A stretch of DNA of 64,000 nucleotides from NCBI GenBank assembly GCA_041178325.1, contig JBEGVN010000014.1, forward strand, positions 12,476 to 76,475, written 5' to 3'. Positions within the stretch are counted from its first letter, which is position 1, and the number at the start of each line of letters is the position of its first letter. Source of the DNA: Pseudomonadota bacterium. Lineage in GTDB: Bacteria; Pseudomonadota; Gammaproteobacteria; Methylococcales; Methylococcaceae. A program made the position numbers and the translations under genes. Positions 3,715-23,778 of this stretch are shown in pieces. Under the pieces are notes generated by a model, which saw nothing but the letters and a program-made list of their open reading frames with translations, did not search any database and was not told the DNA's origin.

Positions 3715-4416
3715 ATGGATGTGCAGCAACCCCTGATTTTGATCATCGAAGACGAAGTTCCTTTTCGCGATTCGCTGGCTACGCTTTTAAGACTGGACGC
3801 CTATCGGGTGGAAGGGGTCAGCCTTGGACGCGAAGGCCTCCATGAGATTCGTGCCGGTCGGGCTGATCTGGTGCTTCTTGACGTCGGTCTACCCGATTGC
3901 AATGGATTCGCGCTGTTTCATGAAATTCGGGAAATCAGCAAGGTTCCCGTCATTTTCATGACCGCCCGGGGGGAGGTCGTTGATCGGGTGACCGGTCTTG
4001 AGCTTGGGGCCGATGATTATCTTCCCAAGCCCTTTGATTATCGCGAGCTGCTGGCGCGGGTTCGCGTTGCCTTGCGACGCGCCTCCAAAAATCCTGAACC
4101 GCCTGCAAGTTCTGCAGCGGGAACCACTCCCTTCCTGATCGAGCCCGAAAAAAGGCGTATCCGGATTCAGGACCAAATTCTGGATCTCACCCCCCTGGAA
4201 TATGGCATCCTGAAGACCCTGATCGAGCGTCCGGGCCATGTCTACAGTCGGGATTACCTGATGGACTCGCTGTGGAGCGGTCCCTTTACTTCGAGTGATC
4301 GGAGCATTGATCAGCACGTCAAGACGCTCCGCCGCAAGATTGGCCGCATCATGGGGGATGCTCCTGTCATCCTGACCCATCGGGGAACGGGCTATGCACT
4401 TCGGGATGACTGGTGA
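3715..4416 (+). CDS. OmpR/PhoB-family response regulator (receiver plus winged-helix), with no adjacent kinase
   Basis: Receiver motifs IIEDE, LVLLDVGLPD and DDYLPKPF. C-terminal LTPLEYGILKTL...RSIDQHVKTLRRKI...GTGYAL. Confidence 0.9.
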   Translation: MDVQQPLILIIEDEVPFRDSLATLLRLDAYRVEGVSLGREGLHEIRAGRADLVLLDVGLPDCNGFALFHEIREISKVPVIFMTARGEVVDRVTGLELGADDYLPKPFDYRELLARVRVALRRASKNPEPPASSAAGTTPFLIEPEKRRIRIQDQILDLTPLEYGILKTLIERPGHVYSRDYLMDSLWSGPFTSSDRSIDQHVKTLRRKIGRIMGDAPVILTHRGTGYALRDDW

Positions 4417-4433
4417 CTAAACGACCCGGACAG

Positions 4434-5378
4434 ATGAAGGCCGTGGCCTACCAGGGCATCCCCGGCTTCAAGTTGCCGCAGCTGGTGAGCCGCAGGGTGC
4501 CTGCACCCGGTCCCGGTCAAGTCCTCATTCAAACGGCTGCGAGTGCCTTGAATCCGATTGACTGGAAACTCCGCAAAGGGATTCTGGGTCTTCTGACCCC
4601 TTGCGCGCGACTCTCCGCGATCCCCGGATTTGATTTCGTCGGCAAGGTGGTGGCCCTGGGTGCGGGTGCCTCCCGCTTTGCGATAGGGGATCGGGTGTTC
4701 GGGATGCTGAATTTTCGAACCATGGGATCACTTTCCGATTTTCTGATTGCCGATGAAGCTGAACTTTCACGGGCGGGTGATCATCTGGATGATGCGACGC
4801 TCGCAGGGCTTCCCTTGGCCGGGATGACGGCACTTCAAGCCATTCGGGATCTGGGTCAACTCAAGCCCCTGAATCGGCTGTTAGTGGTCGGTGGGAGCGG
4901 CGGCGTTGGCCATTTGGGGGTCCAGATCGGAAAGGCGCTGGGCGCAAGGGTTACTGCGGTCACGGGCCCACGGAATGTGGATCATGTCAGGCAGCTTGGG
5001 GCCGATGAAGTCATAAATTACGCTGGGAACGCAGACCTTACCGGCCCATTCGACGTCATTCTCGATGCGGTCGTATCGAAGTCCTATCGCCACTGGGCGA
5101 AGCATCTGTCACCATCCGGGACCTATGTCTCTGCGCTTCCGTCGCTTGATCTTCTGATTCGGAGCAGACTTACTCGGCATGCCAAGGGGAAGAAAGTCCG
5201 AATTATCGGTGTGCACCCCTCTCATTTGGATCTCGAGTGGTTAAGGGGTCAGGCCGAACAGGGTACTGTCCGACTCATCGTGGATTCCCGCTATCGCCTC
5301 GAAACAGCCGATGAGGCGATCATGAGGAGCCAGTCGGGTCGGGCCCGCGGCAAGATTATCATCCTGAACACCCACTAG
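4434..5378 (+). CDS. Medium-chain dehydrogenase/reductase, NAD(P)H quinone oxidoreductase-like
   Basis: MKAVAY start at 4434 (the track ORF begins at a GTG at 4413). Rossmann motif VVGGSGGVGHLGVQIGKALGARV. Confidence 0.85.
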   Translation: MKAVAYQGIPGFKLPQLVSRRVPAPGPGQVLIQTAASALNPIDWKLRKGILGLLTPCARLSAIPGFDFVGKVVALGAGASRFAIGDRVFGMLNFRTMGSLSDFLIADEAELSRAGDHLDDATLAGLPLAGMTALQAIRDLGQLKPLNRLLVVGGSGGVGHLGVQIGKALGARVTAVTGPRNVDHVRQLGADEVINYAGNADLTGPFDVILDAVVSKSYRHWAKHLSPSGTYVSALPSLDLLIRSRLTRHAKGKKVRIIGVHPSHLDLEWLRGQAEQGTVRLIVDSRYRLETADEAIMRSQSGRARGKIIILNTH

Positions 5379-5488
5379 ATCGATACAAGTAAGGGGCGGG
5401 GTTGATACCTCACCCCCGTTCTACTCTGGGTTTAGATGACTTTTTTCCGATCACTCACAGAGTGATCTCGTTCCCATGGTGATGGATT

Positions 5489-5686
5489 TCAGCAGCCCTT
5501 GATGCTGGGATCGCCCTGACTACAGCCACTCGCCTTACCGGTCACGCGCAACTTTCCGCAACGCAGGAGTACAGGTCGCCCTTGCAGGATGACTTCCTCG
5601 ATATCCCGTGAGCGGCTTCGGATGATCCATGTGGCCATGCCGATCACCGCCAGGACGGCTAAAACACTCAATAAGATCCAGTTCAT
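5489..5686 (-). CDS. Small membrane protein (65 aa) with one N-terminal TM helix and a Cys-containing tail, hypothetical
   Basis: The internal ATG at 5686 is preceded by AGGAG. The product is MNWILLSVLAVLAVIGMATWII followed by RCGK...GCSQGDPSIKGC. No family recognised. Confidence 0.45.
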   Translation of the reverse strand: MNWILLSVLAVLAVIGMATWIIRSRSRDIEEVILQGRPVLLRCGKLRVTGKASGCSQGDPSIKGC

Positions 5687-5921
5687 CGTCAATCTCCTGG
5701 GCCTCTTGCCCGGTGGGACGTTCCTTTCTACTTCTTCACATTCGGATATGGGGTCTAAACCCTGGTTAACAAGGGTAAGACACGATAATCCCACATGAAT
5801 TCAACGGCTTTTTAACTTCGTTTTGTTACAGATATGCACACAGACATAAAAAAACAACAAACGCTTCCGAACCAGTGACTTAGGACACCCCACTGGCCGG
5901 TGCGGATGCGCATTTTAGGGG

Positions 5922-5939
5922 TCTACACGTGTTCTACAC
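5922..5939. promoter_or_regulatory. Direct repeat TCTACAC-gtgt-TCTACAC in the AT-rich region upstream of the FlhD-like gene
   Basis: Read directly, about 90 bp upstream of the ATG at 6031. Confidence 0.3.
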
Positions 5940-6030
5940 AAATTTCATTGGCATCACACAGAATCCACATCATTTCTCCACACAGGATGGAAATACTTGA
6001 GCCCGTTACCAACCTGATGGGAGAAACACC

Positions 6031-6369
6031 ATGCCATCCCCAAATGACATCACAACCCTCAATCGACTCTACCTCACCAAGGCTCGTGAACTGGCGCTTC
6101 AAGGAGAGGAAAGCCGTGCCACTTACCTTCTGGGTATTCCCATGGAAGCCCTCAGTGTCATCCGCAGAATGCCGCTCTCAGCCATCGAGGATCTGGCGGA
6201 GTCGGGTGTTCTGACCTTTGGATTTCGAACGGCGCTTCCGTGTCTCAAGGCCTTTGCCGCTGAAACACAAGATGGATCGCCTTCATCGGCCCATCTCAAG
6301 ATGCAACTTTTGGCCAGTCACAAGGTGGATGGCGTGAGGAGAGAGCCCCATGGCCGCCATCTCTCTTGA
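6031..6369 (+). CDS. FlhD-family transcriptional activator subunit (SetD/AcaD-like)
   Basis: Resembles FlhD in LNRLYLTKARELALQGEE...YLLGIPMEALSVIRRMPLSAIEDLAESGVLTFGFR. RBS GGGAGA. Overlaps the FlhC-like gene by 20 nt. Confidence 0.7.
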   Translation: MPSPNDITTLNRLYLTKARELALQGEESRATYLLGIPMEALSVIRRMPLSAIEDLAESGVLTFGFRTALPCLKAFAAETQDGSPSSAHLKMQLLASHKVDGVRREPHGRHLS

Positions 6370-6862
6370 GCGTCATCGCAGCGTTGATCTGGCCCTTGCG
6401 CTGGTGCAACGAAAACTAAGAACGAGTCCTGCGCATGTTCTGACCGGCCTCCCGGAAGCCGAGATCCGGAGTCTTTATCGCCTGGTCCATGGCCGCTCAC
6501 CGACGTCAGGGTCGATTCCTTCGACAGGACATCTGATGACCTCACGCCGCCGGCAGGCCAAGATATCGGTCTTCATTGCCGTTTATCTGGGTCTTGCCGG
6601 GGATGAAGGAGGGCGTCATGTGGATGCGCGGATGCTGATCCGAAGCCATGACCTCTTTCAGGAACTGATCGGGGTGCGTCAGGCCGAAGAGGTCGATTTG
6701 ACCGCGGCCTGGTCAGTGCTTCGGGAATATCAAAGCGGCATTTCGCGACGACCCTGCTGCAAGGACTGTGGCGCCTGCTACATCATTACGGATACGGCCG
6801 ATGTTCCTCCATCATGTCCCTTTTGCGCCCTTCGAAGGCGATGCGCGTCCCCGAGTGTCTGA
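6350..6862 (+). CDS. FlhC-family transcriptional activator subunit (SetC/AcaC-like)
   Basis: FlhC-like N-terminus (SLERHRSVDLALALV...EIRSLYRLVHGRSP) and a four-Cys zinc site CCKDCGACYIITDTADVPPSCPFC. Confidence 0.75.
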   Translation: MAAISLERHRSVDLALALVQRKLRTSPAHVLTGLPEAEIRSLYRLVHGRSPTSGSIPSTGHLMTSRRRQAKISVFIAVYLGLAGDEGGRHVDARMLIRSHDLFQELIGVRQAEEVDLTAAWSVLREYQSGISRRPCCKDCGACYIITDTADVPPSCPFCALRRRCASPSV

Positions 6863-6892
6863 TTGATTTGATTAGCATGGCACTCAGGCTTA

Positions 6893-9214
6893 ATGTATGG
6901 GCTCCCGAACCCCCACGAGAGCCCCTTCATGCAAGCTTCAGCCCGAATCCGGATTTCAGGTCGCGACATCGAAATCTCTCATCCAGAACCCTTTGGACCG
7001 GGCGATATCGATCGTCTTCTGCATCGCGCCTTTGCCCATGCGGATACCGATTCGGTGCACCTTGAGCCGTCGATCCGGCGGTTCAAGATCCGCCTTGGGA
7101 GTAGGAACACGGATACCAAGGCCTCGCTCGCACGGCTTGCCGATCTCATGGCACAGCCATCGGTACCTGAAGAATCCTTGCCAGAGGTCCCAGGACCAAG
7201 CCCTGTCACTTTTCAGCGTTGGCGGGGAATCGTGACTTCGCTGAACCTTCAGGATCAGGCTCTGGGACAAGTGCGCGTTGGGGTGCCGCGCAAGAGTTCT
7301 GGGCGGATCCAGCGGGAATCACTTCAAAATCTTCGCGGACTTCCTGGAGTGCATCAGGTCAGAACGCGCCGCTATCCGCGGCGCATCGTCATTGGATATG
7401 ACCCCAAGGTGGATCCGACGGTCTGGGTTCGGGCGCTAGAGCGTACGCTTTACCCTTCGGTCCATGCTCTTGTCACTCCGGAATCACCAAAGATCCCGGC
7501 GCTGATGGCCAATACCAATCTCGTCCTGTGTACCACGGGCCAGTTTTTTTATCCGCCGGTCATTCCTCTCGTTTCAGGCGTTCTGCTGCTCAGCCGTATC
7601 CCGCAGTTTGCGAAGGCTGCACGTGAACTTGGGCACGGCAAGATCGGTGCGCCTTTCTATGGCAGTGTCGTTGTGGCATGTTCTGTCGCTGCCATGGCGC
7701 CCTTTGCCTCGGCACTGGCCGAATGGTTGACCTGCGTATGGGAGCGACGGGTTGGACGTTTGATTACCCGTGAATCCAAGGTGCTGATTGCTGGACTTCC
7801 TCCGGTGACCAGGCTTCCGTCACCCGGGGAGAAGCGCAAGCCCCTCACGCTGGCGTCAGGTGACCTGGTGCCGTTTGACGGGATACTCGCAAAGGGCGAA
7901 CTCCTGGTTCGGGATGGTCTTTTTATGGACCCTGCATCCTCCCCCCTGATCCGAAAGCACCCGGGTGATGCATTGATCTCCGGCTTTCAGGTGATCGGCG
8001 GGCAAGGGACGATCAAGCCCTCCGAGGATGGTCATGAGGATCGTTTGCGTTCGGTTATTCAGGTGATTGCCGAACTTCCGGTTCGTCTGACGGAAGATGA
8101 CGCTCTCAAGGGCGAGGCACGTCGCATGGGTGATTTGAGCGTCTACCCCAATCTGGCCCTGGCGGGTGTGGCCTATTCGATGGGTGGGCTGCACATGGCT
8201 GGGGCGCTGATGCATCAGGACTGGATGGCCAGCCCGATGATTGCGGCCCCGACGGAATTTTTCCGTGACCTTCGGACGGGACTTGAACATGGCGCCCTGG
8301 TGCGCACCCCGGGTGCGCTCAAGGGACTTGCGCAGACCGATGTGCTGCTGATCGAGGCCAATTATCCGGGCCTATCCGATCTGAGACCTCGTGTCATCGA
8401 CATTGAATCGGATGATAAACCCGTCTCCAGAGCCAATGCCTGGGCCTCGATTCTGGCTGACTGGGTGGGCGACGCTCGCTCTGAGGCGCTAAGGGATCTT
8501 GCGCTGGTCAGCGATAGCGCCATCGTCGAATCGAGTTTTGTCCGCTTTGAAGACGGCCAGACAGAACTTCGCATCGAGGGCCTCAAGGTGGTCCTTGAAG
8601 ATCTCGATGTCGGGGGTGAGTGGCCCTCCCTTCGTATCGCCATCGAGGGGGAACCCGTCGAGACTCTAAGGTTTGGTGCAACGGACCTCGCACGACTGGC
8701 CCGAACCTTCCAGCGTCTGCGCGCCATGGGTATTGCCACTGCGGTCTATGGTCCAGGTGCCGCTACGGTGGGTGCCGTGGTGGGCGCGGATGCCACATAT
8801 CCTGATGTTGATGCCAACACGCTCGCCAAATTCCGCAGTGAACTCAATCTCAAGGGGTATGCCTCGAGTCTGGTGGCCTCCCGTCCCCTGGATCCCGCGC
8901 TGGTGGAGGATGCCCCGGTCGTGATTGGACCTTTGAACACGCTCAAGGGCATTGAGGTCCCCACCATCCAGTTGCTGGGTGATTCCCTCGATGGGCTCCC
9001 CGAACTGGTCCTCGCAGCACGTACCCTAAGGCTTCGGGTCGGACTGGCCAGTGCCCGAACCATTCCCACCAACCTCCTTTGCATCCTCGGTGCCTTTGCA
9101 GGCACCCTGAATGGCACCATGACAACTCTCATTGCACACAGCGGAGTGTTCGGAGTCTCACTGGTTCAAGGCCGACGCATCAAGAAGTCCAAACGCAAGG
9201 GTGAGATCCTCTAG
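6893..9214 (+). CDS. P1B-type (heavy-metal) ATPase homologue with all catalytic motifs degenerate, a putative pseudo-ATPase membrane protein
   Basis: Colinear with the CopA/ZntA layout. It has an HMA-like segment without CxxC and the A-domain GDLVPFDGILAKGELLV. TGES reads DPASS, CPC reads ASP, DKTGT reads EANYP (TDVLLIEANYPGLS), TGDN reads GPGA and GDGxNDxP reads SRPLDPA. The frame is intact. Alternative ATG at 6929. Confidence 0.7.
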   Translation: MYGLPNPHESPFMQASARIRISGRDIEISHPEPFGPGDIDRLLHRAFAHADTDSVHLEPSIRRFKIRLGSRNTDTKASLARLADLMAQPSVPEESLPEVPGPSPVTFQRWRGIVTSLNLQDQALGQVRVGVPRKSSGRIQRESLQNLRGLPGVHQVRTRRYPRRIVIGYDPKVDPTVWVRALERTLYPSVHALVTPESPKIPALMANTNLVLCTTGQFFYPPVIPLVSGVLLLSRIPQFAKAARELGHGKIGAPFYGSVVVACSVAAMAPFASALAEWLTCVWERRVGRLITRESKVLIAGLPPVTRLPSPGEKRKPLTLASGDLVPFDGILAKGELLVRDGLFMDPASSPLIRKHPGDALISGFQVIGGQGTIKPSEDGHEDRLRSVIQVIAELPVRLTEDDALKGEARRMGDLSVYPNLALAGVAYSMGGLHMAGALMHQDWMASPMIAAPTEFFRDLRTGLEHGALVRTPGALKGLAQTDVLLIEANYPGLSDLRPRVIDIESDDKPVSRANAWASILADWVGDARSEALRDLALVSDSAIVESSFVRFEDGQTELRIEGLKVVLEDLDVGGEWPSLRIAIEGEPVETLRFGATDLARLARTFQRLRAMGIATAVYGPGAATVGAVVGADATYPDVDANTLAKFRSELNLKGYASSLVASRPLDPALVEDAPVVIGPLNTLKGIEVPTIQLLGDSLDGLPELVLAARTLRLRVGLASARTIPTNLLCILGAFAGTLNGTMTTLIAHSGVFGVSLVQGRRIKKSKRKGEIL

Positions 9215-12200
9215 GTTCTCTCCCTCCGTCGTTGTCCGTTATAGCTTCGCAAAAGACCCAAAAGATCGTCTCTGCCACCGGCCGCAATTTTTCGGAGCAG
9301 GGCGGCGAGAACGGGGCCCTTGGTGCCGGCCTCCTGATCCAGGGCTTCGCGTGATGGCCCAAGATCGCCGAGGCTCTTTTGATAGTCTCCGGTCACTGGA
9401 TACCCTGCAAATGACTCCAGCAGTGCGGCCTTGTAATAACGCGCCTGTGCCGGAGTCAGATCTTTGCTGACTTTCAAAGTCTCGCCCTCGATCCACCGAT
9501 GCAACTCGCTCTCAACTGCAGATGGACTCTCCTTGATCAGCTTCCGGAGGGTTTCAGATGGCGAGTCACCCCGGGATTCAGCATCCTTCAGAATCTGCCC
9601 CAATACTTCAATTCCGCTTTCCCCGAGTACCTTGAGGCGGGCGTAACTGGCTCTCAGAAAGGCGCCGCTGAGGCTATCCAAGGATTCAGCCGCGGATGTG
9701 GCGCTGGAGGCTACATCGAGGCGCGGGGAGAGTTTCTCTTGACGGTCTTCGTCGAATCGCTGTTCACTCTGGTGCTGCTGTTGCTTCCGGGCATGAAAGG
9801 CCGCATCGGCGGATTCTGCAATCCGTGCATCTCCCTGATCATTCATGTCACTCGCCCGATGGATCTGTGCCATCGTATCTGCCGCGATGTTTTCCGGTTG
9901 TTCCATGGGGTGGTCCTTGAGTGCCCACTGGACCTTCGATTGAAGGATTTCACTGTCCACCGGCATGCGAAGTGCATGCGCAGTTCTCTCAGGGGCAAGA
10001 TCTGTTGCGACATAAGGCGCATGAAAGGCTTCTCCAAGGACAGTACGACCCAGCGTCCTTGCGAGAACCGATTCTTCTTCGGATAGTGGGTGGTAGACCG
10101 GGTGGGCATGCCCTGTCATCAGCGCGAGTCCCGCTGCGGCATAGGATTGGGTTGCATTCCCAATGAGGTTTTGATGATGCCATTCGTTACCGAGTCGCTC
10201 GGCATCTCCGCGCAATCCCACCTGATCGAGCGCATGATGCAATGCTTCCAGGGTTTCTGGTTGCTGGACAATCCGATGGCTGGCTTCAAGCGCCCCGATA
10301 CGCACATCGGAACCTGACCGGTAGCTGGTCTGGGTGGTCGTCTGATACGCCCTTTCGGCCTCTATGGCTGCTTGTGCAGTGTGTCCCAATTCTCCCAAGG
10401 CATCAGAGCGAAGTCCCAGCGTTGCACTCATCCTGTGCCCCTCAGCGGCATCTTTTGCGACCGATTGGGCCAGTTCATTCTGAAAGCCATGATCCTGGGT
10501 AATCTTTTTTGAAAGATCCGCGGCAATTTCGTGCGCCCGGCCCTCACCGAGGTGAAAGCGATCCTGAAGTTGACCCTGGAGGCCAAGAGCCAGGTTATCG
10601 GGAAGCAGGCCGCCCGATGGCACACCCTGAGAGGGCCCCTGATAGCGTCCTGTCACGGCGCCTCCAAGCAGCGTTGCAAAGTCATGACCGCTAAGCCCAC
10701 TTTCCCGATATCGCTCGGCAAGATCCTCACCCGTCGCTTCCATGAACCGGTCGGTGGCACTCGATTGCGAGGCCGTTCTTTGACTGATCAACCGGTTTTG
10801 GCTTCCTTCTTCCAGCAGCGCATGGCTCTTGGCACCCTGTACACGCAGGCCTTGCATGAATGTATCGTTGCTGCGTTCGCGTTGCGAGGCCTCAGAGGCC
10901 TCGGTGTGTGCTTGATCCTGGCTCAAGCTGAAGGTGGGGAGAATACGCTCTGCGCCGGACATCGAAAGTCCTGCCAAGGGGGTATGCCGGTGACTTGATT
11001 CCATTCCGATCAGGGCAGGGGACTGCAAAAGCGCGGGGCTTGCGACCTTTTCATCAACAAAGTCGCCGCCTTGCATGCGGCCCAGAAAATGTGTTGCCGT
11101 GACAGAACCCCCATAGACCAGCATCAAGGCAATGGCCGGTGTCGCACTGGCCAGCATTCCGCCTACGGCCAGCCAGTTCTGGAGTTCCATGTCCATCTGA
11201 TAAAGACCTGCAACGGAGTCCAGCGCAAAGCGTGCCTTCGACAAGGCGGCGAATCCGCCACGCGTTGCAAGGGTAATGTAGAGATTCCCGATCGCAAGTA
11301 TCGGCATCCAGAACTGGATCCAGATCAGCATCAGCGCGTACTGGCCGCAAAGACGAATACCGCGTGCACCCAGAAGGAGGGTGAACGCCATGATGGGTGT
11401 CACGGCGTAGCTGAATCCCTCAATCCAGGTCAGCATGGGACGCACCATGCGCGCAAAGAGAGATTGCTCGGCCGCCCACTGGGTATTGCGCTGCGCAATG
11501 GCGGTTTCAACCATCGCGGCCTGCGTGGCCTTGAGGCTGTCCTGCTGACGGCCAAGCACTCCCTGTTCAAAAAGGGGGACCAAGGCTGCTGCAAGGATAA
11601 AGCGGGAGGCCTCTTGTTGTCCCTGTGTCAGGGCATCGAGGGCCGCCTGAATGGTGCCTATGGGATCTTTTGCACCCGGCCCTGACATGAAAAATCCCAG
11701 CTGCTGGACCAGCAGGGGAAACGCCTGATCGGTCACCAGATGCCGCAGGCGAGGCCAGGCATCGGTGCATGTCACGAGCAGAGGAAGGCTGCCGTCCCGT
11801 ATCTCGGTGGCATAGATCTCGGAGTCATAACGTAGGGCATCGGGGAGTCCTCCCGTATTCAGTAGGGTCGTAGCGTCAATTGCGCCAAGATCAACTCCGG
11901 TCAACGTGCAGTCCTTCACGTACTGAGTGACACTGGTGGCCACATCGCTTGTAGGTGAGGGATCAAGAGCTTTCCCGAGTGAAAGGCGGGAGAGAAGATT
12001 CCTGCGGACCTGGGTCAAGGTTTCAAGGCTCCCTGCATAGCCTTGCTGCGTCAGGGTCGGGACTGAAAATGCGGTTTCGAAAAGTACCGTCAATCCATAG
12101 CCGAGCTCTGAAATGATGGCACCGGAAACGGCAGGTCCGAGGGGGACATGGTCAACAACCCTGATCTCGCCGGTATAGGCATCTTCAATGGAAAGGGAGG

Positions 12201-12432
12201 TGGTGGGTTGAAAGAGTGCCATCCACAGAATGACCGCGCCAATAAATTCACCATAGCGCAGGGTCGGTGGGCCTGTCTCAAGGAGTCCTCGCAAGGCTTG
12301 CATGAGGATGCCAACGAGGGCACCGATACCGGCAGCGGTCCTTACATCCTGTGTCCCAAAGACCATGGCAATACTGTTGAGGATCGCGGCCAGGAAAGCG
12401 CTGTCGCCTATGGCATGGAGGGTGAGAACCAT
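9211..12432 (-). CDS. traG: F-type conjugal transfer protein TraG (TraG_N mating-pair formation/stabilisation)
   Basis: 1073 aa with a multi-TM N-terminal half (TWIEGFSYAVTPIMAFTLLLG, MLIWIQFWMPILAIGNLYI) and a long Ala/Gln/Ser-rich C-terminal half. Follows traH. Confidence 0.85.
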   Translation of the reverse strand: MVLTLHAIGDSAFLAAILNSIAMVFGTQDVRTAAGIGALVGILMQALRGLLETGPPTLRYGEFIGAVILWMALFQPTTSLSIEDAYTGEIRVVDHVPLGPAVSGAIISELGYGLTVLFETAFSVPTLTQQGYAGSLETLTQVRRNLLSRLSLGKALDPSPTSDVATSVTQYVKDCTLTGVDLGAIDATTLLNTGGLPDALRYDSEIYATEIRDGSLPLLVTCTDAWPRLRHLVTDQAFPLLVQQLGFFMSGPGAKDPIGTIQAALDALTQGQQEASRFILAAALVPLFEQGVLGRQQDSLKATQAAMVETAIAQRNTQWAAEQSLFARMVRPMLTWIEGFSYAVTPIMAFTLLLGARGIRLCGQYALMLIWIQFWMPILAIGNLYITLATRGGFAALSKARFALDSVAGLYQMDMELQNWLAVGGMLASATPAIALMLVYGGSVTATHFLGRMQGGDFVDEKVASPALLQSPALIGMESSHRHTPLAGLSMSGAERILPTFSLSQDQAHTEASEASQRERSNDTFMQGLRVQGAKSHALLEEGSQNRLISQRTASQSSATDRFMEATGEDLAERYRESGLSGHDFATLLGGAVTGRYQGPSQGVPSGGLLPDNLALGLQGQLQDRFHLGEGRAHEIAADLSKKITQDHGFQNELAQSVAKDAAEGHRMSATLGLRSDALGELGHTAQAAIEAERAYQTTTQTSYRSGSDVRIGALEASHRIVQQPETLEALHHALDQVGLRGDAERLGNEWHHQNLIGNATQSYAAAGLALMTGHAHPVYHPLSEEESVLARTLGRTVLGEAFHAPYVATDLAPERTAHALRMPVDSEILQSKVQWALKDHPMEQPENIAADTMAQIHRASDMNDQGDARIAESADAAFHARKQQQHQSEQRFDEDRQEKLSPRLDVASSATSAAESLDSLSGAFLRASYARLKVLGESGIEVLGQILKDAESRGDSPSETLRKLIKESPSAVESELHRWIEGETLKVSKDLTPAQARYYKAALLESFAGYPVTGDYQKSLGDLGPSREALDQEAGTKGPVLAALLRKIAAGGRDDLLGLLRSYNGQRRRERT

Positions 12433-14696: not shown

Positions 14697-14732
14697 CCTT
14701 TCAAGATGAGGCGAACGGGTTACCTTGAAAGG
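14697..14732. promoter_or_regulatory. Inverted repeat CCTTTCAAG-atgagGCGAACGGgtta-CCTTGAAAGG, copy 2 of the shared element, abutting the srkA stop codon
   Basis: Perfect 9-bp arms read directly. It lies between the srkA stop (14733-14735) and the traF start (14662). Confidence 0.5.
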
Positions 14733-15734
14733 TCAGGGCAGAAGGGAGAGCGGGGGCTCCAGCATCCTTTCGACTTGATTTGAAAGCTCAACGGTTCTCT
14801 CAGTCCAGTACGCAGGTGTCCCAAAATCGGGGAAGGCCCTTGGAAAAGCAGGATCTTCGGTGCGCGCTGAAAGCCATTCGCTGTAATGAATCAATCGAAG
14901 GGTCCGTAAGGGCTCAATGAGTCGTAGTTCACGCAGGTCAAAACTTTCAAAAGTGTCATAGCCCTCAATCAGTGTCATCAGGGCCATGCGACGGTCGGCT
15001 TCGTCGCCCTGAGCGAGCATCCAGAGGTCCTGTACTCGAGGGCCGATGCGGGCATCATCAAAATCGAGCAGCAGGGGTCCCTCGGAGGTTGTCAGGATGT
15101 TTCCGGGATAAGCATCGGCATGGACCCGGATGGTTGAAACCGGTCCCGTTGACTCGAAAGCTGCATCAATGGCCGAAAGGGCGCTAACAAGGGCTTCCTC
15201 ATAAGGTTTGTGGAGAGAGGTCGGAATGAGTCCGCTTTCCAGAATCCGAAGGCCAGGACGATGCCCATAGGTCAGGGGATCAACGGTCGGGCGGTGATGA
15301 AAGGGGTGTAACTTTCCCACGGCATGAATCCGAGCAATCAGACGTCCCAGGGATTCAAGGGTGTCGAGATCCTCGGTTTCAGGGGGGCGCCCCCCGATCC
15401 TGGGCGAAAGGGAAAAGCGAAAATCAGCGAAGTGAAAAAGGCTTTTGCCTTCGGCGTCTTCAAGCATGGGGGCTACCGGGATTTCGGCGGCCTGAAGCTC
15501 TTTGAGGAATTCATGCTCCTCGAGTATGGCCTCATCAGTCCAGCGACCCGGCCGGTAGAATTTGGCAATGGCAAAGCTGCCCTCATCAAGGCCTACCTGA
15601 AAGACCCGATTTTCGTAACTATTGAGCGCCATGATGCGCCCATCCGGTTGCCATCCCGCTGATTCCAGGGCATCTCCGATCAGATCCGGTGTTAGCGTTT
15701 CAAAGGGATGTGGAGGTGTGGGGATCGGGTTCAT
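14733..15734 (-). CDS. srkA: Stress response serine/threonine kinase SrkA (YihE)
   Basis: Colinear with E. coli YihE: LNSYENRVFQ, KFYRPGRWT, HADAYPGNIL, DFDDARIGPRVQDLWML, IEPLRTLRLIHY. MNPIP start at 15734; the track ORF starts at a GTG at 15785. Confidence 0.9.
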   Translation of the reverse strand: MNPIPTPPHPFETLTPDLIGDALESAGWQPDGRIMALNSYENRVFQVGLDEGSFAIAKFYRPGRWTDEAILEEHEFLKELQAAEIPVAPMLEDAEGKSLFHFADFRFSLSPRIGGRPPETEDLDTLESLGRLIARIHAVGKLHPFHHRPTVDPLTYGHRPGLRILESGLIPTSLHKPYEEALVSALSAIDAAFESTGPVSTIRVHADAYPGNILTTSEGPLLLDFDDARIGPRVQDLWMLAQGDEADRRMALMTLIEGYDTFESFDLRELRLIEPLRTLRLIHYSEWLSARTEDPAFPRAFPDFGTPAYWTERTVELSNQVERMLEPPLSLLP

Positions 15735-15865
15735 AAGGGAGACAGCCGGTGAGGGGTACCCGAGGATACTCCTTTTGACCGCCACCAGTCCCTCGATCTT
15801 TTATTGAATTTGAGGGCTTCGTTTGTGATCGGCTCGTCGGGTGAGATACCCGTGCATCGTCCCGG

Positions 15866-18709
15866 GTGCTGGCATATCATCAGAGCCATGACGCAATCCC
15901 TGTTGGAGACCCCGTGACTTCATCGCATGCCCATGCTCTTTGCAGGCATCTGGGGACGGGTGAGCGCTTGATTTTCGTGATGGTTGCCTGCCTGACACTG
16001 ATCCTGTCGCGAACGGCATTGGGGCATGAAGGGATCGTAACGGACGGCTCGGTCGGTGCGGCACCCTACCTGGGATCTGTTCATACTCTCTCGCCACCTT
16101 CAGGACCGCAATCGGTCACGGTGAGCCAATCCATGGGGTCTACCCAAGGCCAAAATCTATTTCAGAGTTTTTCTCAATTCAATATCGCGCCTGGCCAGAC
16201 TGTCACCTTTACCGAGGACAAGGTCGGCTTTATTGAAAATATCATCGCAAGAGTCACTGGTCACGAGGCTTCCCAGATCAATGGAACCCTTCGGGTCACC
16301 CCGGAAGGAAGAGCCAATTTTTATCTTTTGAACCCCAACGGTGTGCTATTTGGTCAGGGCGCCCAAATCGATGTTCCGGGCGATTTTCATGTCACCACTG
16401 CGAGCTATGTGAAATTTCAGGATGGGGCACGATACGGTACTGATCCTGTGACCAGCAAGCTATCAAGTTCCGCACCGGTGGCCTTTGGATTTGTCGGTGC
16501 GAATCCGAGTAACAACGTACTGATTGATGTCAGTGATGGTGCGACGCTTGCCACCCAACACAGACATACAGCCATCGACCTTGTGGGTGCCAATCTTTCA
16601 ATCAGCAAGGGCGCATCGTTGGTCGCAGCTCAAGAAGGGTCTGAGATTCGGCTGGTTGCATCCAAGGGGAGGCATGAAGTCAGCGTGATGAAAGATGCTT
16701 CGGGATACCTCCCTTTGCCTTATACAAAGCCCAACCGGGAGAATGCAGGCGCCATCACGCTGGATTCCGGCGCGTCCTTACTCTCAAGGTCCCCGACCGG
16801 GGGGCGTATCGGGATTTGGGGGCAATCGCTTGACCTGAGTCAGGGCTCAACGATTGGCGTCTATCATAGCGGAGACAGTGATCCGGACTCCTCCCAGGGT
16901 ATCCATGCCACCTTGAACACCCTATCCATTCGGGATGAGGGCTCCGCTGTCAGCAGAATTTTCACAATGAACGATGCCAAGGGTCACGGGGCGGATATCC
17001 ATCTGTCCGTGGGTGACCGCATTGAAATCCACAACAATATTCATTCAGCGGATTTCAACGGGATTTACTCGATCAGTCAGGGCAGCGGAGATGGGGGGAA
17101 TATTCGCATCGAAGCCGGCTCCATGGCGATGTCAGGTGGAGCCCCGTTCGGAGCCACGGCCGAAATCACTGCCGAGGCCAGAGCCGGGGGGGCTAGTGGA
17201 AATGTCGACATTCGAACGCGAGGCAGTCTTCTCATGGCGAACGATGCCTCTATTTCGGCAAAGGCCCTTGGAGCTCCGCGTGCCGGTCACCTGAAGCTTG
17301 CGATCGGCGGTGACCTGACGATACGAAACCGCTCTCTGATTCAAGATCTGGCCTTACCCTTCGAGAGTAACCCCTCCAATGGGGAGGGTGAAACCGGCGA
17401 TATCCGGGTTACAGCAAACAACATCAAAATCATTGACTTAGGCCAAAATGCCAATCCCCACGATACCGGAATCTCAAGCCGGAATGAATTTGGTTACGGG
17501 GCCGTCGGGAATATAGATGTCATTTCGAGAGGGAATATCGACATCCGGGGTGGATATGGATATGTTGCGCCCAAACAAGACGGGTCCGATGATGCGAAGA
17601 TTGTCGGAATCTCTTCATACTCGAATACGTTGTCACCAAACGTTGGCCATCTGAACGTCTGGAGCCAGGGCAAGATCACACTGCATGGCTATGGTGAGGA
17701 TGAACCTCATGATGCTTCCGGTCTTTTCCGGTTTTTAAACCCCACCGTTGAAACCGGAATCAGTTCCCTGGTCCATGAGCCGTCTGATGCTCCCCCCCCG
17801 AGTGTGCATGTTCATGCAGGTGAGGGTATTTCATTAACCCAATCGATCATTCTGGTGGGAGGTAAATTAAATCAATCGGATCAGATGCCGACTGTGCGTG
17901 TCAGTTCCGAGGGGCCCATATCGCTTCAGAGGTCCGAAATCGCGAATGCGGTCAAGGTAATGTCTCAGGATTCAAAGAACTTTGGCACTGGAGTCAGCGT
18001 CTTGGGTGGCTCGTTACTCATGCAGGACAAAAGTAACCTTTACAGTAATGTCCCAGGTTATGGCATAGATGTTCGGTCGGATGCCGGCGTCTTCATCAGT
18101 TCCAAAACGGTGAATGTGCACTATCCTTACAATCAGGATCCCCTCTATCTCCCTGATGTGGCCATGTATTACTCAGGTGACTATGGCCTTGGCAATATTT
18201 CGATTTCAGCCAAGGATAACCTGATCATCTACAACGCAAGTATTGGTAGTGAAATTACTTCCAAAAGCATCATGAATGCCCGTTTGAATTTGTCATTATC
18301 GGCCGAAAACGTCCTGATCAGTGCTGCCTTGTTGGGTTTAGGGTCCAATCAAAGCCAGTTGAATTCTCAATCCTCCAGCATCGACCTGGATTCCCAGGGT
18401 GTATTTCCTCTATTCAACGTAATTAATAACAGCTTCTATACAGATGAAAGCGGATTGATTGCGAGCATTAGGCCCAACTATCCATCAGGCCTGAACAATC
18501 GCGTCATTAAGTCCTCTGGGAATCGGATAACGGATGATTTCACAGTCAGCGGATCTCTTTTTGGGATCAGCGGCGTCTTGCCGACTCTGAGTCTTCCGGA
18601 ATTTGGATCCGAGGGTGATCTTTTGTCCTGTCAAACCTTCAAGAAGGGTGAGCTTTCCTTAACAGGCAGAGGGAGACTGACAGGCGAAACGCCTTCAGGG
18701 CTGTATTGA
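15866..18709 (+). CDS. TPS-domain (filamentous haemagglutinin N-terminal domain) exoprotein, paralogue 1. Predicted beta-helical secreted protein.
   Basis: TPS motifs QNLFQSFSQFNI and NFYLLNPNGVLFG..DVPGDFHVTTA after a signal-like MVACLTLILSRTALG. The start is uncertain (GTG 15866, ATG 15980). Confidence 0.8.
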   Translation: MLAYHQSHDAIPVGDPVTSSHAHALCRHLGTGERLIFVMVACLTLILSRTALGHEGIVTDGSVGAAPYLGSVHTLSPPSGPQSVTVSQSMGSTQGQNLFQSFSQFNIAPGQTVTFTEDKVGFIENIIARVTGHEASQINGTLRVTPEGRANFYLLNPNGVLFGQGAQIDVPGDFHVTTASYVKFQDGARYGTDPVTSKLSSSAPVAFGFVGANPSNNVLIDVSDGATLATQHRHTAIDLVGANLSISKGASLVAAQEGSEIRLVASKGRHEVSVMKDASGYLPLPYTKPNRENAGAITLDSGASLLSRSPTGGRIGIWGQSLDLSQGSTIGVYHSGDSDPDSSQGIHATLNTLSIRDEGSAVSRIFTMNDAKGHGADIHLSVGDRIEIHNNIHSADFNGIYSISQGSGDGGNIRIEAGSMAMSGGAPFGATAEITAEARAGGASGNVDIRTRGSLLMANDASISAKALGAPRAGHLKLAIGGDLTIRNRSLIQDLALPFESNPSNGEGETGDIRVTANNIKIIDLGQNANPHDTGISSRNEFGYGAVGNIDVISRGNIDIRGGYGYVAPKQDGSDDAKIVGISSYSNTLSPNVGHLNVWSQGKITLHGYGEDEPHDASGLFRFLNPTVETGISSLVHEPSDAPPPSVHVHAGEGISLTQSIILVGGKLNQSDQMPTVRVSSEGPISLQRSEIANAVKVMSQDSKNFGTGVSVLGGSLLMQDKSNLYSNVPGYGIDVRSDAGVFISSKTVNVHYPYNQDPLYLPDVAMYYSGDYGLGNISISAKDNLIIYNASIGSEITSKSIMNARLNLSLSAENVLISAALLGLGSNQSQLNSQSSSIDLDSQGVFPLFNVINNSFYTDESGLIASIRPNYPSGLNNRVIKSSGNRITDDFTVSGSLFGISGVLPTLSLPEFGSEGDLLSCQTFKKGELSLTGRGRLTGETPSGLY

Positions 18710-18795
18710 ATCGGGCAGCGATCCTGAGGTTTATCAGGGAAACGATTGCCCGAAGGGTTTTGCTAGAATCCAATTCCACCCATTAAACCTTTGAT

Positions 18796-19644: not shown

Positions 19645-19781
19645 CATCAGATGACGTTCAAATTCTTTTAATCAAGACGTCACCCCATCCTCGATCAGGA
19701 TGTACCGCATCAAAGATGATGCGGTGCTCTGGCACCTGTCATATCATCCCGTTTAATACGTATTGATGAGACCATGAAGCC

Positions 19782-22583: not shown

Positions 22584-22678
22584 CCCTACGCTATACAACA
22601 TTCCCAAAATCGCTGAGGCGCTCACCTCCTCAACTAAGGCAAGACCCTTCTGAAACGGTGTCGTATACCGTTGCAATC

Positions 22679-23689: not shown

Positions 23690-23778
23690 GGGGTAATTGC
23701 CTCTACAATGTTTTCAGAACACCGCCTCCGGCGGTTGCTGATTGGGACCGGATCCCCATCTTCCTCATGGAGTGCTGG

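What the first reader, a model, noticed from the sequence alone, without database searches (positions are those of the whole stretch)
6893..9214. Intact but catalytically dead P1B-type ATPase homologue in the FlhDC-like operon of a conjugative element
The 773-aa product follows the heavy-metal P-type ATPase layout region by region. It has an HMA-like beta-alpha-beta segment (LRGLPGVHQVRTRRYPRRIVIGYDPKVDPTVWVRALE) lacking CxxC, then TM helices, then the A-domain GDLVPFDGILAKGELLV...HPGDALISGFQVIGG. Every catalytic signature is replaced: TGES reads DPASS, the TM6 CPC reads ASP, DKTGT reads EANYP, TGDN reads GPGA and GDGxNDxP reads SRPLDPA. The frame is nevertheless uninterrupted over 2.3 kb, and the gene sits 30 nt after the FlhC-like gene. 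That pattern argues for a maintained pseudo-enzyme (scaffold, sensor, anti-activator or exclusion factor) rather than a decaying pump. I know of no described role for such a protein in MOBH/F-type elements.
Basis: partly seen in the sequence, partly recalled or inferred. Interest (0 to 1): 0.75.

Follow-up and report, generated by a model that had tools for sequence, protein, structure and literature searches.

The report
Dead metal-pump look-alike in conjugative element
A mobile DNA element of methane-oxidising bacteria carries, next to its master switch genes, a well-preserved protein that has the full shape of a metal-pumping ATPase but has lost every residue needed to burn ATP; it belongs to a large, apparently undescribed class of such "dead pumps", so it probably works by binding rather than pumping.

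Summary
Window 6893..9214 (+) is an intact 773-aa ORF, 30 nt after a FlhC-like gene and convergent with traG; the two stop codons overlap. A profile of 19 homologues hits P1B copper pumps at E=2e-21, and an AlphaFold model (pLDDT 85) matches ATP7B, LpCopA and ZntA at E about 1e-20 to 1e-23. Aligned to E. coli CopA, every catalytic motif is replaced: TGE, CPC, DKTGT, HP, TGD, GDGxND. The gene is not decaying. Only 1 of 39 genome copies is frameshifted, dN/dS is about 0.08, and the FlhD-FlhC-gene/TraG order holds down to 36% identity.

New here: the gene belongs to a Methylococcaceae-specific 'HQDW' branch. Its sister clade is chromosomal and always follows a catalytically intact paralogue (live ATPase - small protein - dead ATPase). 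About 140 of the 150 best representatives in a 1.84-billion-protein search are likewise motif-less, and the live/dead module recurs in four distant loci. Live and dead forms share a membrane Asp (M4) and Asn (M5).

Best reading: a non-catalytic, ion/ligand-binding membrane adaptor co-expressed with the transfer activator. Entry exclusion and mimicry of the host pump's dead subunit remain live rivals. Function is inferred, not shown.

The parts
6893..9214 (+). Pseudo-P1B-ATPase gene (773 aa; alternative start at 6929 would give 761 aa, as in most homologues)
   Evidence: ORF; family profile vs PDB P1B pumps E=2e-21; AF2 pLDDT 85 and Foldseek top hits ATP7B, LpCopA, ZntA; dN/dS about 0.08
6932..7462 (+). 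Two N-terminal cytoplasmic beta-alpha-beta domains (residues ~14-95 HMA_2-like, ~100-190 HMA-like), no cysteines
   Evidence: Weak HMA alignments; one family member hits PF19991 HMA_2 and two hit PF00403; secondary structure of the model; sequence has no Cys before residue 213
7502..7795 (+). Membrane helices MA/MB/M1/M2 (residues ~204-301), highly conserved ('APFASALAEW')
   Evidence: Alignment A1 invariants; dN/dS 0.03-0.07; 52% identity at the deepest ICE-clade split
7805..8044 (+). Actuator (A) domain (residues ~305-384); the dephosphorylation loop TGE reads D-P-A
   Evidence: Pfam/PDB alignments to E1-E2_ATPase and CopA A-domains; motif table
8045..8287 (+). Membrane helices M3-M4 (residues ~385-465) with invariant H-Q442-D443-W444...P448 where pumps have CPC; codon D443 = 8219..8221
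   Evidence: The Asp is 97% conserved in the dead superfamily and 100% in live partners. Lowest dN/dS of the protein, 0.02-0.03
8288..9004 (+). Degenerate P/N headpiece (residues ~466-704). E488 (8354..8356) replaces the phosphorylated Asp of DKTGT; G526-D527-A-R529 replaces SEHP; GPGA replaces TGDN; ASRPLDP replaces GDGxNDxP
   Evidence: hmmsearch alignment to LpCopA; MAFFT with E. coli CopA and the live partner; residue counts
9005..9187 (+). Membrane helices M5-M6 (residues ~705-765) with invariant N727 (9071..9073) and C730, equivalent to the M5 'YN' Asn of copper pumps
   Evidence: dN/dS about 0-0.06
6031..6369 (+). FlhD-like (SetD/AcaD-type) activator subunit gene, upstream in the same apparent operon
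   Evidence: Pfam PF05247 E=1.8e-4, below the gathering score; conserved synteny
6350..6862 (+). FlhC-like (SetC/AcaC-type) activator subunit gene; ends 30 nt before the ATG at 6893
   Evidence: Pfam PF05280 E=1.4e-13; no promoter- or terminator-like site in the gap; sequence
9211..12432 (-). Convergent traG (TraG_N, 1073 aa); its stop codon overlaps the stop codon of the pseudo-ATPase gene (CTAG at 9211-9214)
   Evidence: Pfam 7.9e-90; junction sequence; same 4-bp overlap in L002
3715..4416 (+). OmpR-type response regulator conserved upstream of the flhDC-like genes in all element copies; followed by a histidine kinase in the P0023 lineage and by an ADH here
   Evidence: Pfam; synteny

Best explanation
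What it is.
- The gene encodes a full-length inner-membrane protein with the complete fold of a P1B-type (heavy-metal) P-type ATPase. It cannot run the ATP-driven pump cycle: the phosphorylation motif, the dephosphorylation loop, the nucleotide-binding HP motif and the Mg2+-binding motifs are all replaced.
- It is a maintained pseudo-pump, not a relic.
- It descends from a widespread and apparently undescribed class of 'dead' P-type ATPase paralogues. These are normally encoded just downstream of a catalytically intact paralogue (live ATPase - small proteins - dead ATPase).
- A Methylococcaceae branch of that class, with signature HQDW in helix M4, was captured as a solitary gene at the end of the FlhDC-type master-activator operon of a MOBH/F-type integrative conjugative element.

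How it most likely works (inferred).
- The membrane core keeps the Asp(M4)/Asn(M5) site that live relatives presumably use to bind the transported ion.
- The protein would bind an ion or small ligand in the membrane and pass the resulting conformational state to a partner through its still-constrained cytoplasmic headpiece. That would make it a transporter-derived sensor or adaptor.
- Because it is made together with the FlhDC-like activator, downstream of a response regulator, its likeliest job is to couple or limit activation of transfer according to membrane or ionic status.

Shown versus inferred.
- Shown: fold, loss of all catalytic motifs, purifying selection, synteny, family relationships.
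- Inferred: co-transcription, ligand binding, the identity of the partner, and the regulatory output.
For: - Fold and homology: family profile vs P1B pumps E=2e-21 to 1e-9, colinear. AF2 pLDDT 85 and Foldseek E=5e-23 to ATP7B, LpCopA and ZntA.
- Catalytic death: all six motifs are replaced in all 12 ICE-type and 20 chromosomal dead copies, while the adjacent live paralogue keeps TGES, DKTGT, HP, SGD and GDGIND. The phospho-Asp position flips between D and E (11 vs 8 of 19). TIGR01525 scores: live 399.5, chromosomal dead 102.6, window 15.3 bits, cutoff 346.
- Maintenance: 37 of 39 genome copies have no disruption, although several of these are cut off by contig ends. omega = 0.08-0.09 for unsaturated pairs and below 0.32 in every domain; lowest in M3-M4 (0.02-0.03) and M5-M6 (about 0). 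Membrane helices are 49-58% identical at the deepest ICE split, against 23-37% for soluble domains.
- Retained membrane site: D443, N727, C730 and P419 are conserved in 79-99% of 109 dead and 89-100% of 9 live superfamily members.
- New conserved motifs at former catalytic positions (D527-x-R529 for HP; [DE]xx[YL]PxL for DKTGT) argue for a changed function rather than none.
- Operon and regulatory context: 30-nt gap after flhC with no promoter- or terminator-like site. The order RR-(HK)-FlhD-FlhC-gene is conserved to 36% identity.
- Origin: NJ tree gives (CopA,(live,(chromosomal dead, ICE-type))). The live/dead module is seen in M. capsulatus and in three distant metagenomic loci.
Against: - No experiment or expression data; co-transcription with flhDC is inferred from spacing only.
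- Intact solitary copies of the ICE-type gene exist without flhDC or tra genes: L006, L008, L010/L011, L016/L039. The protein can therefore function without a cis-linked activator, which weakens a role tied strictly to FlhDC.
- The closest annotated relatives of the element, the Methylomonas MOBH plasmids, have FlhD-FlhC convergent with TraG and no such gene. It is therefore not essential to this type of conjugation system.
- Ligand binding at the Asp/Asn site is an inference from conservation.
- No partner has been identified.
- Position next to traG fits an exclusion factor equally well.
Confidence: 0.42

Rival explanations
1. Entry-exclusion factor. The protein sits in the recipient's inner membrane and blocks DNA entry from donors carrying a cognate TraG. 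It would be functionally analogous to Eex of SXT/R391, EexC of IncA/C or TraS of F, although unrelated in sequence and five times larger.
For: - The gene occupies the slot directly beside traG, between traG and the FlhDC-type activator genes. In IncC pVCR94, eexC is vcrx145 and directly follows traG: a deletion 'vcrx087-traG' joins sfx (vcrx085) to eexC (PMC11493245).
- TraG/Eex pairs co-evolve in SXT/R391 (PMC2791158).
- It is an inner-membrane protein.
- No other gene lies between flhC and traG.
- Intact solitary copies in islands outside any element would make sense as immunity against entry.
Against: - Known Eex/TraS proteins are small (from my own knowledge; sizes not checked here). In SXT/R391, eex is among the most polymorphic core genes (PMC2791158).
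- This protein is 773 aa, under strong purifying selection (omega about 0.08), with nearly invariant membrane helices.
- It diverges in step with the other element genes and shows no exclusion-group-like split.
- Placement in the activator operon suggests induction together with transfer. In IncC, sfx was shown to be expressed independently of AcaCD; the eexC result was not seen in the passages read.
- The Methylomonas relatives have no gene in this slot.
Confidence: 0.2
2. Host-pump mimic. The element-borne dead paralogue binds the host's chromosomal live ATPase (MCA1915-type) in place of, or alongside, the chromosomal dead partner. This would modulate or hijack that transport module for the element's benefit.
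For: - The sister clade is the chromosomal dead partner, always encoded as live ATPase - p172 - dead ATPase.
- The element-type and chromosomal dead proteins share the HQDW / PNLLC / NG membrane signatures.
- All HQDW-type genes found among 185,579 species genomes are in Methylococcaceae.
- 10 of 11 assemblies with an element-type or solitary copy also carry the chromosomal module.
- Binding a live paralogue is a common mode of action of pseudoenzymes (reviews PMC5106787 and PMC10211241, seen only as abstracts).
Against: - That the live and dead chromosomal proteins form a complex is itself only inferred from gene adjacency.
- The element clade is sister to the chromosomal clade, not nested in it, and has drifted much further from P-type ATPase profiles (15 vs 103 bits). 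Identity to the chromosomal dead protein is only 21-39% per domain, so a shared interface is not evident.
- Co-occurrence may simply reflect host range.
- The genome scan used HQDW/FASALAEW patterns, so the taxonomic restriction is partly built in.
Confidence: 0.2
3. Still a transporter. The protein moves an ion passively, or with non-canonical energy coupling, through the retained membrane pathway, as a channel- or uniporter-like derivative of a pump.
For: - The most conserved parts are the membrane helices. They carry invariant polar residues at the canonical ion site: D443, N727, N740, Q442.
- Former catalytic positions carry new conserved residues rather than random ones.
Against: - No known P-type ATPase transports without the phosphorylation cycle (established knowledge of the Post-Albers mechanism).
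- The cytoplasmic headpiece is retained under selection, which a mere channel would not need.
- The acidic residue at the phospho-site flips between D and E. From general knowledge of P-type ATPases, a Glu there is not expected to form the phosphoenzyme.
Confidence: 0.07
4. Decaying cargo. The gene is a pump gene that lost function and is drifting towards loss.
For: All catalytic motifs are gone. One MAG copy is frameshifted and one has an internal deletion.
Against: - The 2.3-kb frame is intact in 37 of 39 genome copies and in 24 database clusters spanning 99% to 30% identity.
- omega is about 0.08 in unsaturated comparisons.
- Gene order is conserved across lineages whose proteins are only 36% identical.
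Confidence: 0.02

Closest known systems
P1B-type heavy-metal P-type ATPases (CopA, ZntA, ATP7B, HMA4; TIGR01525)
   Same: Same overall architecture and fold: N-terminal ferredoxin-like domain(s), MA/MB plus M1-M6 helices, and A, P and N domains in the same order. The M5 Asn of the 'YN' motif is kept.
   Different: No CxxC. TGE, CPC, DKTGT, HP, TGD and GDGxNDxP are all replaced. It scores 15.3 bits against a 346-bit cutoff. It cannot be a pump by the known mechanism.
Chromosomal 'dead' partner of the live/dead P-type ATPase module (M. capsulatus MCA1911-type, next to MCA1915-type live ATPase); not described in the literature I could search
   Same: Sister clade. Same HQDW (M4), NLLC (M5) and NG (M6) signatures, the same G-D-x-R replacement of HP, and the same loss of catalytic motifs.
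   Different: The window gene is solitary: no live ATPase, p172 or EcsC gene beside it. It is embedded in a conjugative-element regulatory operon. It is more degenerate: it has lost the Gly of TGE and the Ser of TGD, and half its clade has Glu at the phospho-site.
Eex / EexC / TraS entry-exclusion proteins of SXT/R391, IncA/C and F elements
   Same: Inner-membrane protein encoded immediately beside traG, on the side facing the FlhDC-type activator genes (for IncC; here).
   Different: No sequence or fold relationship. 773 aa compared with small proteins (sizes from my own knowledge). Slowly evolving rather than polymorphic. Apparently operonic with the activator.
Transporter-derived sensors ('transceptors') such as UhpC, Snf3/Rgt2, Ssy1 (analogy from my own knowledge, not tested)
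   Same: A transporter fold that keeps its substrate site but no longer transports, and is encoded with regulatory genes. Here these are a response regulator and the FlhDC-like activator.
   Different: Those are MFS or APC-family proteins. No P-type ATPase-derived sensor is known to me, and no signalling has been shown here.

Membership tests
P1B-type P-type ATPase (functional pump) | Overall P-type ATPase fold with A, P and N domains and 8 TM helices | tested here: met
   Foldseek E=5e-23 to 1e-18 against ATP7B, LpCopA, ZntA, AfCopA and KdpB over ~630-900 aligned columns. Profile vs PDB E=2e-21.
P1B-type P-type ATPase (functional pump) | DKTGT phosphorylation motif | tested here: not met
   Aligned columns read E-A-N-Y-P. 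Across the family the pattern is [DE]-x-x-[YL]-P. No DKTGT anywhere in any of the 39 genome homologues.
P1B-type P-type ATPase (functional pump) | TGE(S/P) dephosphorylation loop in the A-domain | tested here: not met
   Aligned columns read D-P-A. In the 12 ICE-type sequences aligned, the Thr column is D in 10 of 12, the Gly column is G in only 1 of 12, and the Glu column is never E.
P1B-type P-type ATPase (functional pump) | CPx metal-binding motif in M4 | tested here: not met
   Aligned columns read W-M-A, preceded by an invariant H-Q-D.
P1B-type P-type ATPase (functional pump) | N-domain HP nucleotide-binding motif, plus TGD and GDGxNDxP of the P-domain | tested here: not met
   HP reads G-D-A-R; TGDN reads G-P-G-A; GDGxNDxP reads A-S-R-P-L-D-P.
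P1B-type P-type ATPase (functional pump) | Score above the curated family cutoff (TIGR01525, 346.25 bits; Pfam E1-E2_ATPase, 28.1 bits) | tested here: not met
   15.3 bits and 12.8 bits respectively. The live neighbour in M. capsulatus scores 399.5.
P1B-type P-type ATPase (functional pump) | N-terminal HMA domain with CxxC | tested here: not met
   A ferredoxin-like fold is present, but there is no cysteine in residues 1-212.
Dead partner class of the live/dead P-type ATPase module (undescribed) | Sequence signatures: M4 x-x-D-[YW], M5 P/T-N-L-x-C, D-x-R in place of HP, [DE]..P.L in place of DKTGT | tested here: met
   Full-length profile matches at E=1e-60 to 1e-135 to motif-less proteins outside the element clade.
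Dead partner class of the live/dead P-type ATPase module (undescribed) | Encoded just downstream of a catalytically intact paralogue and small ORFs | tested here: not met
   In the window, and in all element copies, the neighbours are FlhC and TraG. The module layout is seen for L017-L043, L045, L047 and L048.
Entry-exclusion proteins (Eex/EexC/TraS) | Inner-membrane protein encoded adjacent to traG | tested here: met
   Convergent with traG, with overlapping stop codons. Membrane protein by model and homology.
Entry-exclusion proteins (Eex/EexC/TraS) | Small size and rapid, group-specific divergence co-varying with TraG | tested here: not met
   773 aa; omega about 0.08. Divergence scales with all the other element genes and shows no bifurcation.
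Entry-exclusion proteins (Eex/EexC/TraS) | Reduces entry of the cognate element when expressed in a recipient | not testable with these tools
   Requires mating assays.
SXT/R391-IncA/C-like MOBH, F-type conjugative elements (context) | TraI_2 (MOBH) relaxase, MobI, FlhDC-type activator, TraF/H/G | tested here: met
   The further tra genes TraD, TraL, TraE, TraK and TraB are present in the homologous locus L002.

The most novel reading that the evidence does not exclude
The window gene is the mobile-element representative of a previously unrecognised branch of the P-type ATPase superfamily: non-catalytic 'pseudo-pumps'. These keep the intramembrane ion site and work as partners or sensors. On chromosomes, a dead subunit would be paired with a live pump; that would be the first pseudo-subunit architecture in this superfamily. 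In this element, the protein would be a new kind of conjugation control or exclusion protein that ties DNA transfer to the cell's ionic or membrane state.
Probability: 0.3. Interest if true: 0.85.

Novelty: new variant of a known kind. Interest (0 to 1): 0.7.

Why it matters
P-type ATPases are among the best-understood membrane machines, and every described member works through an aspartyl-phosphate cycle.

This work points to a conserved class that keeps the whole fold and the membrane ion site but has lost all catalytic residues. It is large: roughly 140 of the 150 best representative clusters, out of 230 at E<=1e-30. Public databases label these proteins 'cation transport ATPase' or 'Cu2+-exporting ATPase', so they are being mis-annotated wholesale. 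The class also offers a natural system for asking what a pump fold can do without pumping.

For mobile-element biology, a 773-aa pseudo-pump has been fixed in the master-activator operon of a MOBH/F-type element, convergent with traG. That suggests an unknown input into the decision to transfer, or a new kind of exclusion. The hosts are methanotrophs of environmental and biotechnological interest.

The hypotheses are directly testable by gene deletion, exclusion assays and interaction mapping.

Tried and rejected
- tblastn of the protein against 72,556 plasmids found only a genuine Deinococcus heavy-metal ATPase at 22% identity. No annotated plasmid carries this gene.
- PADLOC defence models: no hit for the protein or its small neighbours.
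- Promoter and terminator consensus scan of 5300..9600: no promoter-like site, and terminator-like sites at the chance level. It is uninformative beyond 'nothing obvious between flhC and the gene'.
- tRNA scan of the window: none, so no tRNA-type attachment site is visible here.
- I tried to read an IncC plasmid (NC_009141) to confirm the position of eexC, but the record is not in the collection. I used the text of PMC11493245 instead.
- Literature searches for dead or pseudo P-type ATPases and for the FUPA families found nothing relevant. The Saier-lab FUPA classification (Chan et al. 2010, recalled from memory) could not be consulted, so an earlier description there is not excluded.
- My first automated ORF extraction wrongly suggested truncation of L009 and L024. 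Per-frame tblastn showed both are intact, and that only L042 is frameshifted.
- Kyte-Doolittle hydropathy under-called the membrane helices. Helix positions in the report come from the AF2 model and the alignment to LpCopA.
- A mirror-tree type comparison with TraG was considered but rejected. All element genes diverge in parallel across the few available loci, so it cannot discriminate.
- Decay was rejected on intactness and dN/dS.


Full report
OBSERVATION. Upstream lie a FlhD-like gene (6031..6369; Pfam PF05247 E=1.8e-4, below the gathering score) and a FlhC-like gene (6350..6862; PF05280 E=1.4e-13). Downstream and convergent lie traG (9211..12432, TraG_N 7.9e-90) and traH. Further left are a TraI_2/MOBH relaxase, MobI and an OmpR-type response regulator; traF follows traH. 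The gap after flhC is 30 nt. Most homologues start at the second Met (window 6929), so the start is uncertain by 12 codons. The stop codon of the gene (TAG, 9212-9214) overlaps that of traG (CTA, 9211-9213). By gene coordinates, L002 has the same 4-bp overlap.

IS IT A P-TYPE ATPASE HOMOLOGUE? On its own the sequence is nearly invisible to curated models: E1-E2_ATPase E=0.086, and TIGR01525 15.3 bits against a 346-bit cutoff. It is weak against PDB, with HMA4 at E=1e-4, although three colinear segments already appear there. A search of 5.8 billion proteins returned 24 relatives from 99% to 30% identity, nearly all 756-779 aa (one 544-aa fragment, one of 822 aa). A profile of 19 of them hits HMA4 (2e-21), LpCopA (2e-17), ATP7B, AfCopA and KdpB. 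The matches run in pump order: HMA, A-domain, M4-P-N-P, M5. An AlphaFold2 model built on that alignment is confident (mean pLDDT 85, pTM 0.79). Foldseek against the PDB returns only P-type ATPases, with P1B pumps on top (E=5e-23 to 1e-20, about 630-900 aligned columns). TM-scores are modest (0.3-0.48), as expected when mobile domains sit in different relative orientations. Homology and fold are therefore established.

ARE THE CATALYTIC MOTIFS REALLY GONE? I aligned 32 family members with E. coli CopA (taken from NC_000913) and with a catalytically intact relative described below. I cross-checked with the HMMER alignment to LpCopA.

| Canonical motif | Window residues at the aligned columns |
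|---|---|
| TGE | D-P-A |
| A-CPC | D443-W-M-A |
| DKTGT | E488-A-N-Y-P |
| S-HP | G-D-A-R |
| TGDN | G-P-G-A |
| GDGIND | A-S-R-P-L-D |
| M5 'YN' | T-N727 |

No DKTGT, CPC or GDGxND occurs anywhere in any of the 39 genome-derived homologues. The former phospho-acceptor position is D in 11 and E in 8 of the 19 aligned proteins; a position that must be phosphorylated would not tolerate that. The first 212 residues contain no cysteine, so the two N-terminal ferredoxin-like domains in the model cannot bind metal in the CxxC manner.

DECAY OR MAINTENANCE? Three lines of evidence point to maintenance.
- Intactness. Of the 39 loci recovered from 185,579 species genomes, one (L042, a MAG) is frameshifted and one (L016) has an in-frame internal deletion. 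The apparent truncations are contig ends.
- Selection. Nei-Gojobori dN/dS is 0.079-0.092 for pairs with unsaturated dS (0.28-0.65) and 0.175 for the closest pair (dS 0.095). It is below 0.32 in every domain. It is lowest in M3-M4 (0.02-0.03) and M5-M6 (about 0), but the soluble A, N and P domains are also constrained (about 0.04-0.12 in these pairs).
- Synteny. Gene order is conserved: MobI-TraI-TraD on one side, then RR-(HK)-FlhD-FlhC-gene, convergent with TraG-TraH-TraF. This holds in loci whose copies are 81%, 79%, 60% and 36-37% identical.

This is a maintained gene.

WHERE DOES IT COME FROM? This is the main new result. All 39 genome hits are Methylococcaceae. One caveat: the scan patterns, HQDW and FASALAEW, were derived from this family, so the result describes the HQDW subclass. 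The loci fall into two context classes.
- Element-type copies (36-81% identity) are flanked by FlhDC and TraG.
- A 24-29% identity tier includes the isolates M. capsulatus Texas, Methylolobus aquaticus and Methylotetracoccus oryzae. Wherever enough upstream sequence is held, these copies follow another P-type ATPase (67-84% identical to the M. capsulatus one) and a protein of about 172 aa with no Pfam match. In several loci an EcsC gene follows.

That upstream ATPase is intact: LTGES, FDKTGT, HHP, SGDH, VGDGINDS. It passes the TIGR01525 cutoff at 399.5 bits, whereas its dead neighbour scores 102.6. A neighbour-joining tree gives (CopA,(live,(chromosomal dead, element-type))). In M. capsulatus Bath these genes are MCA1915 (live), MCA1913 (small) and MCA1911 (dead). 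The genome paper merely lists MCA1911 and MCA1915 as part of 'a cation membrane transport system' (PMC517821). Public names are 'cation-transporting ATPase', 'P-type ATPase' or 'hypothetical protein'.

HOW BIG IS THE CLASS? An exhaustive HMMER search of 1.84 billion representatives with the family profile gave 230 clusters at E<=1e-30. Of the 150 listed, about 10 have DKTGT, TGE and GDGxND together; about 140 lack them. Aligned, the two classes look like this:

| Position | Live class | Dead class |
|---|---|---|
| M4 | N-x-D-[FLY]-G-T-G-I-R | R-P-D-Y-A-T-G-P-G (H-Q-D-W in Methylococcaceae) |
| DKTGT | intact | D-D-H-P-A-L |
| HP | intact | D-x-R-A |
| M5 | P-N | P-N-L-x-C |

Three distant dead members sit in the same layout: live ATPase, small ORFs, dead ATPase, then EcsC or a Na/Ca exchanger (L045, L047, L048). 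Named relatives come from Acidobacteriota (Terracidiphilus) and Alphaproteobacteria (Stellaceae) and carry generic annotations. Across 109 dead and 9 live sequences the shared near-invariants are the M4 Asp (window D443; 97% and 100%), the M5 Asn (N727; 99% and 100%), the M5 Cys (C730) and P419. I found no paper describing motif-less P-type ATPases. The TCDB 'FUPA' literature could not be consulted.

THE ELEMENT CONTEXT.
- The closest annotated TraG relatives are on Methylomonas megaplasmids (38% identity; typed MOBH). There SLT-FlhD-FlhC meets convergent traG across about 270 bp with no ATPase-like gene. The gene is therefore an acquisition of the Methylococcus-type lineage and is not essential to this kind of transfer system.
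- Intact solitary copies from the element-type clade occur away from any tra gene. One is beside an integrase and what looks like a tRNA 3' end (L006; not confirmed with the tRNA tool). One is beside an IS200 transposase (L008). One is on short contigs (L010/L011). The more distant solitary copies L016 and L039, which were not included in the tree, lie in a conserved DUF6765 - DPBB context.
- Ten of the eleven assemblies with an element-type or solitary copy also have the chromosomal live/dead module.
- To the right of traF, the window and L002 share the same chromosomal flank (APH, bestrophin-like, LpxK, FUSC). These genes are 53-75% identical, comparable to the element genes at 45-71%. The element is therefore either strictly site-specific or a long-term resident at this locus.

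MECHANISM. Shown: the protein has the pump fold, cannot use the pump chemistry, keeps the membrane Asp/Asn site of its live relatives, and is constrained in all domains. Inferred: it acts by binding.

I favour (0.42) a transporter-derived sensor or adaptor that is made with the FlhDC-type activator, reads an ion or ligand in the membrane, and signals through its headpiece. The reasons are:
- The tight spacing after flhC suggests an operon, and no promoter- or terminator-like site lies in the gap.
- The conserved response regulator, and in some lineages a kinase, sits upstream.
- Conservation is concentrated on the ion-site helices.
- New conserved residues occupy the former catalytic positions.

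Two rivals remain serious.
- Entry exclusion (0.2) fits the slot beside traG, which is where eexC sits in IncC (PMC11493245) and where Eex/TraG pairs co-evolve in SXT/R391 (PMC2791158). It also fits the solitary copies. It fits poorly with the protein's size, its slow evolution and its apparent co-expression with the activator.
- Mimicry of the host pump's dead subunit (0.2) fits the ancestry and the host range. It rests on an unproven live-dead complex and on only 21-39% identity per domain to the chromosomal dead protein.
- Non-canonical transport (0.07) and decay (0.02) are unlikely.

VERDICT. The gene is a new variant within the P-type ATPase superfamily: a member of an apparently undescribed non-catalytic class, here recruited by a conjugative element. 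Its function is unknown experimentally, and the competing mechanisms are directly testable.

Noticed in passing
L035:4506-11203 (M. capsulatus Texas); same layout in L017, L018, L021-L025, L031-L038, L043: Chromosomal operon-like module: a catalytically intact P-type ATPase of 874 aa (M4 reads N-S-D-L-G-T-G instead of CPC; HMA_2-like N-terminus), then a 172-aa protein with no Pfam match, then a dead 786-aa paralogue, then EcsC. A Na/Ca-exchanger gene lies nearby. It corresponds to MCA1915, MCA1913 and MCA1911 in strain Bath. No functional study was found.
   Followed up: partly
P0068-P0213; loci L045, L047, L048: About 140 of the 150 best representative clusters matching the family profile lack DKTGT, TGE and GDGxND. 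They form a broad 'dead' class (M4 RPDYATGPG; D-DHPAL; D-x-R-A). It occurs in distant bacteria (Acidobacteriota and Alphaproteobacteria are named; one further locus has planctomycete-type PSD/PSCyt neighbour genes), again downstream of a live paralogue. Databases label them cation or Cu2+ ATPases.
   Followed up: partly
window 5489..5686 (-): Conserved single-pass membrane protein of about 65 aa with a Cys-rich tail (MNWILLSVLAVLAVIG...RCGKLRVTGKASGCS), encoded divergently between the response-regulator/ADH genes and flhD. It is 55% identical to the 63-aa gene at L002:8656-8847 (E=2e-19). No Pfam or PADLOC match. It is a possible regulator or exclusion candidate of the element.
   Followed up: partly
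window 9211..9214: The stop codons of the pseudo-ATPase gene and of convergent traG overlap (CTAG). L002 has the same 4-bp overlap. There is no room for a terminator, so transcripts from the activator operon and the traFHG operon should collide or overlap as antisense.
   Followed up: no
window 14705..26594 vs L002:17816-22289: The same chromosomal junction follows traF in the window and L002: APH kinase-like, bestrophin-like, LpxK, FUSC. In the P0023 contig, APH and LpxK follow traF after two inserted genes. Flank genes (53-75% identity) have diverged about as much as the element genes (45-71%). This suggests a strictly site-specific or long-resident element. No tRNA was found in the window.
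   Followed up: partly
window 15866..18709 and 19782..22583 (+): Two large TPS-domain (two-partner-secretion exoprotein-like) genes flank the bestrophin-like gene. They are absent from the otherwise syntenic flank in L002. The region has lower GC (0.46-0.49) than the rest of the window, which suggests a separate insertion.
   Followed up: no
window 3715..5378; L004:6084-8167: In the window, and in L009, the response regulator upstream of flhDC is followed by a zinc-type alcohol dehydrogenase. In the P0023 lineage it is followed by a histidine kinase and an SLT transglycosylase. The sensory input module of the element therefore differs between lineages.
   Followed up: no
L006:4509-10292; L008:97-2974; L016:762-6221; L039:4450-8916: Solitary copies of the gene lie outside any tra context, intact except for L016. 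L006 is next to a tyrosine integrase and an apparent tRNA 3' end. L008 is next to an IS200-like transposase. L016 and L039 share a conserved DUF6765 - RlpA-like DPBB context. L016 carries an in-frame deletion of roughly residues 490-650 (most of the N-domain).
   Followed up: partly
L044 (Methylomonas sp. DH-1 plasmid NZ_CP014361, 144663-165911): The closest annotated relative of the transfer genes has SLT-FlhD-FlhC convergent with traG and no ATPase-like gene. The FlhC gene is not in the PLSDB gene table, but tblastn detects it at L044:12944-13432.
   Followed up: yes
P0036 (AAU92110.1, M. capsulatus Bath): The original Bath annotation fuses the dead ATPase and the downstream EcsC gene into a single 1068-aa 'cation-transporting ATPase, E1-E2 family'. 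In strain Texas the two ORFs overlap (7998-10358 and 10217-11203). This looks like an annotation artefact or a frame difference worth checking.
   Followed up: no
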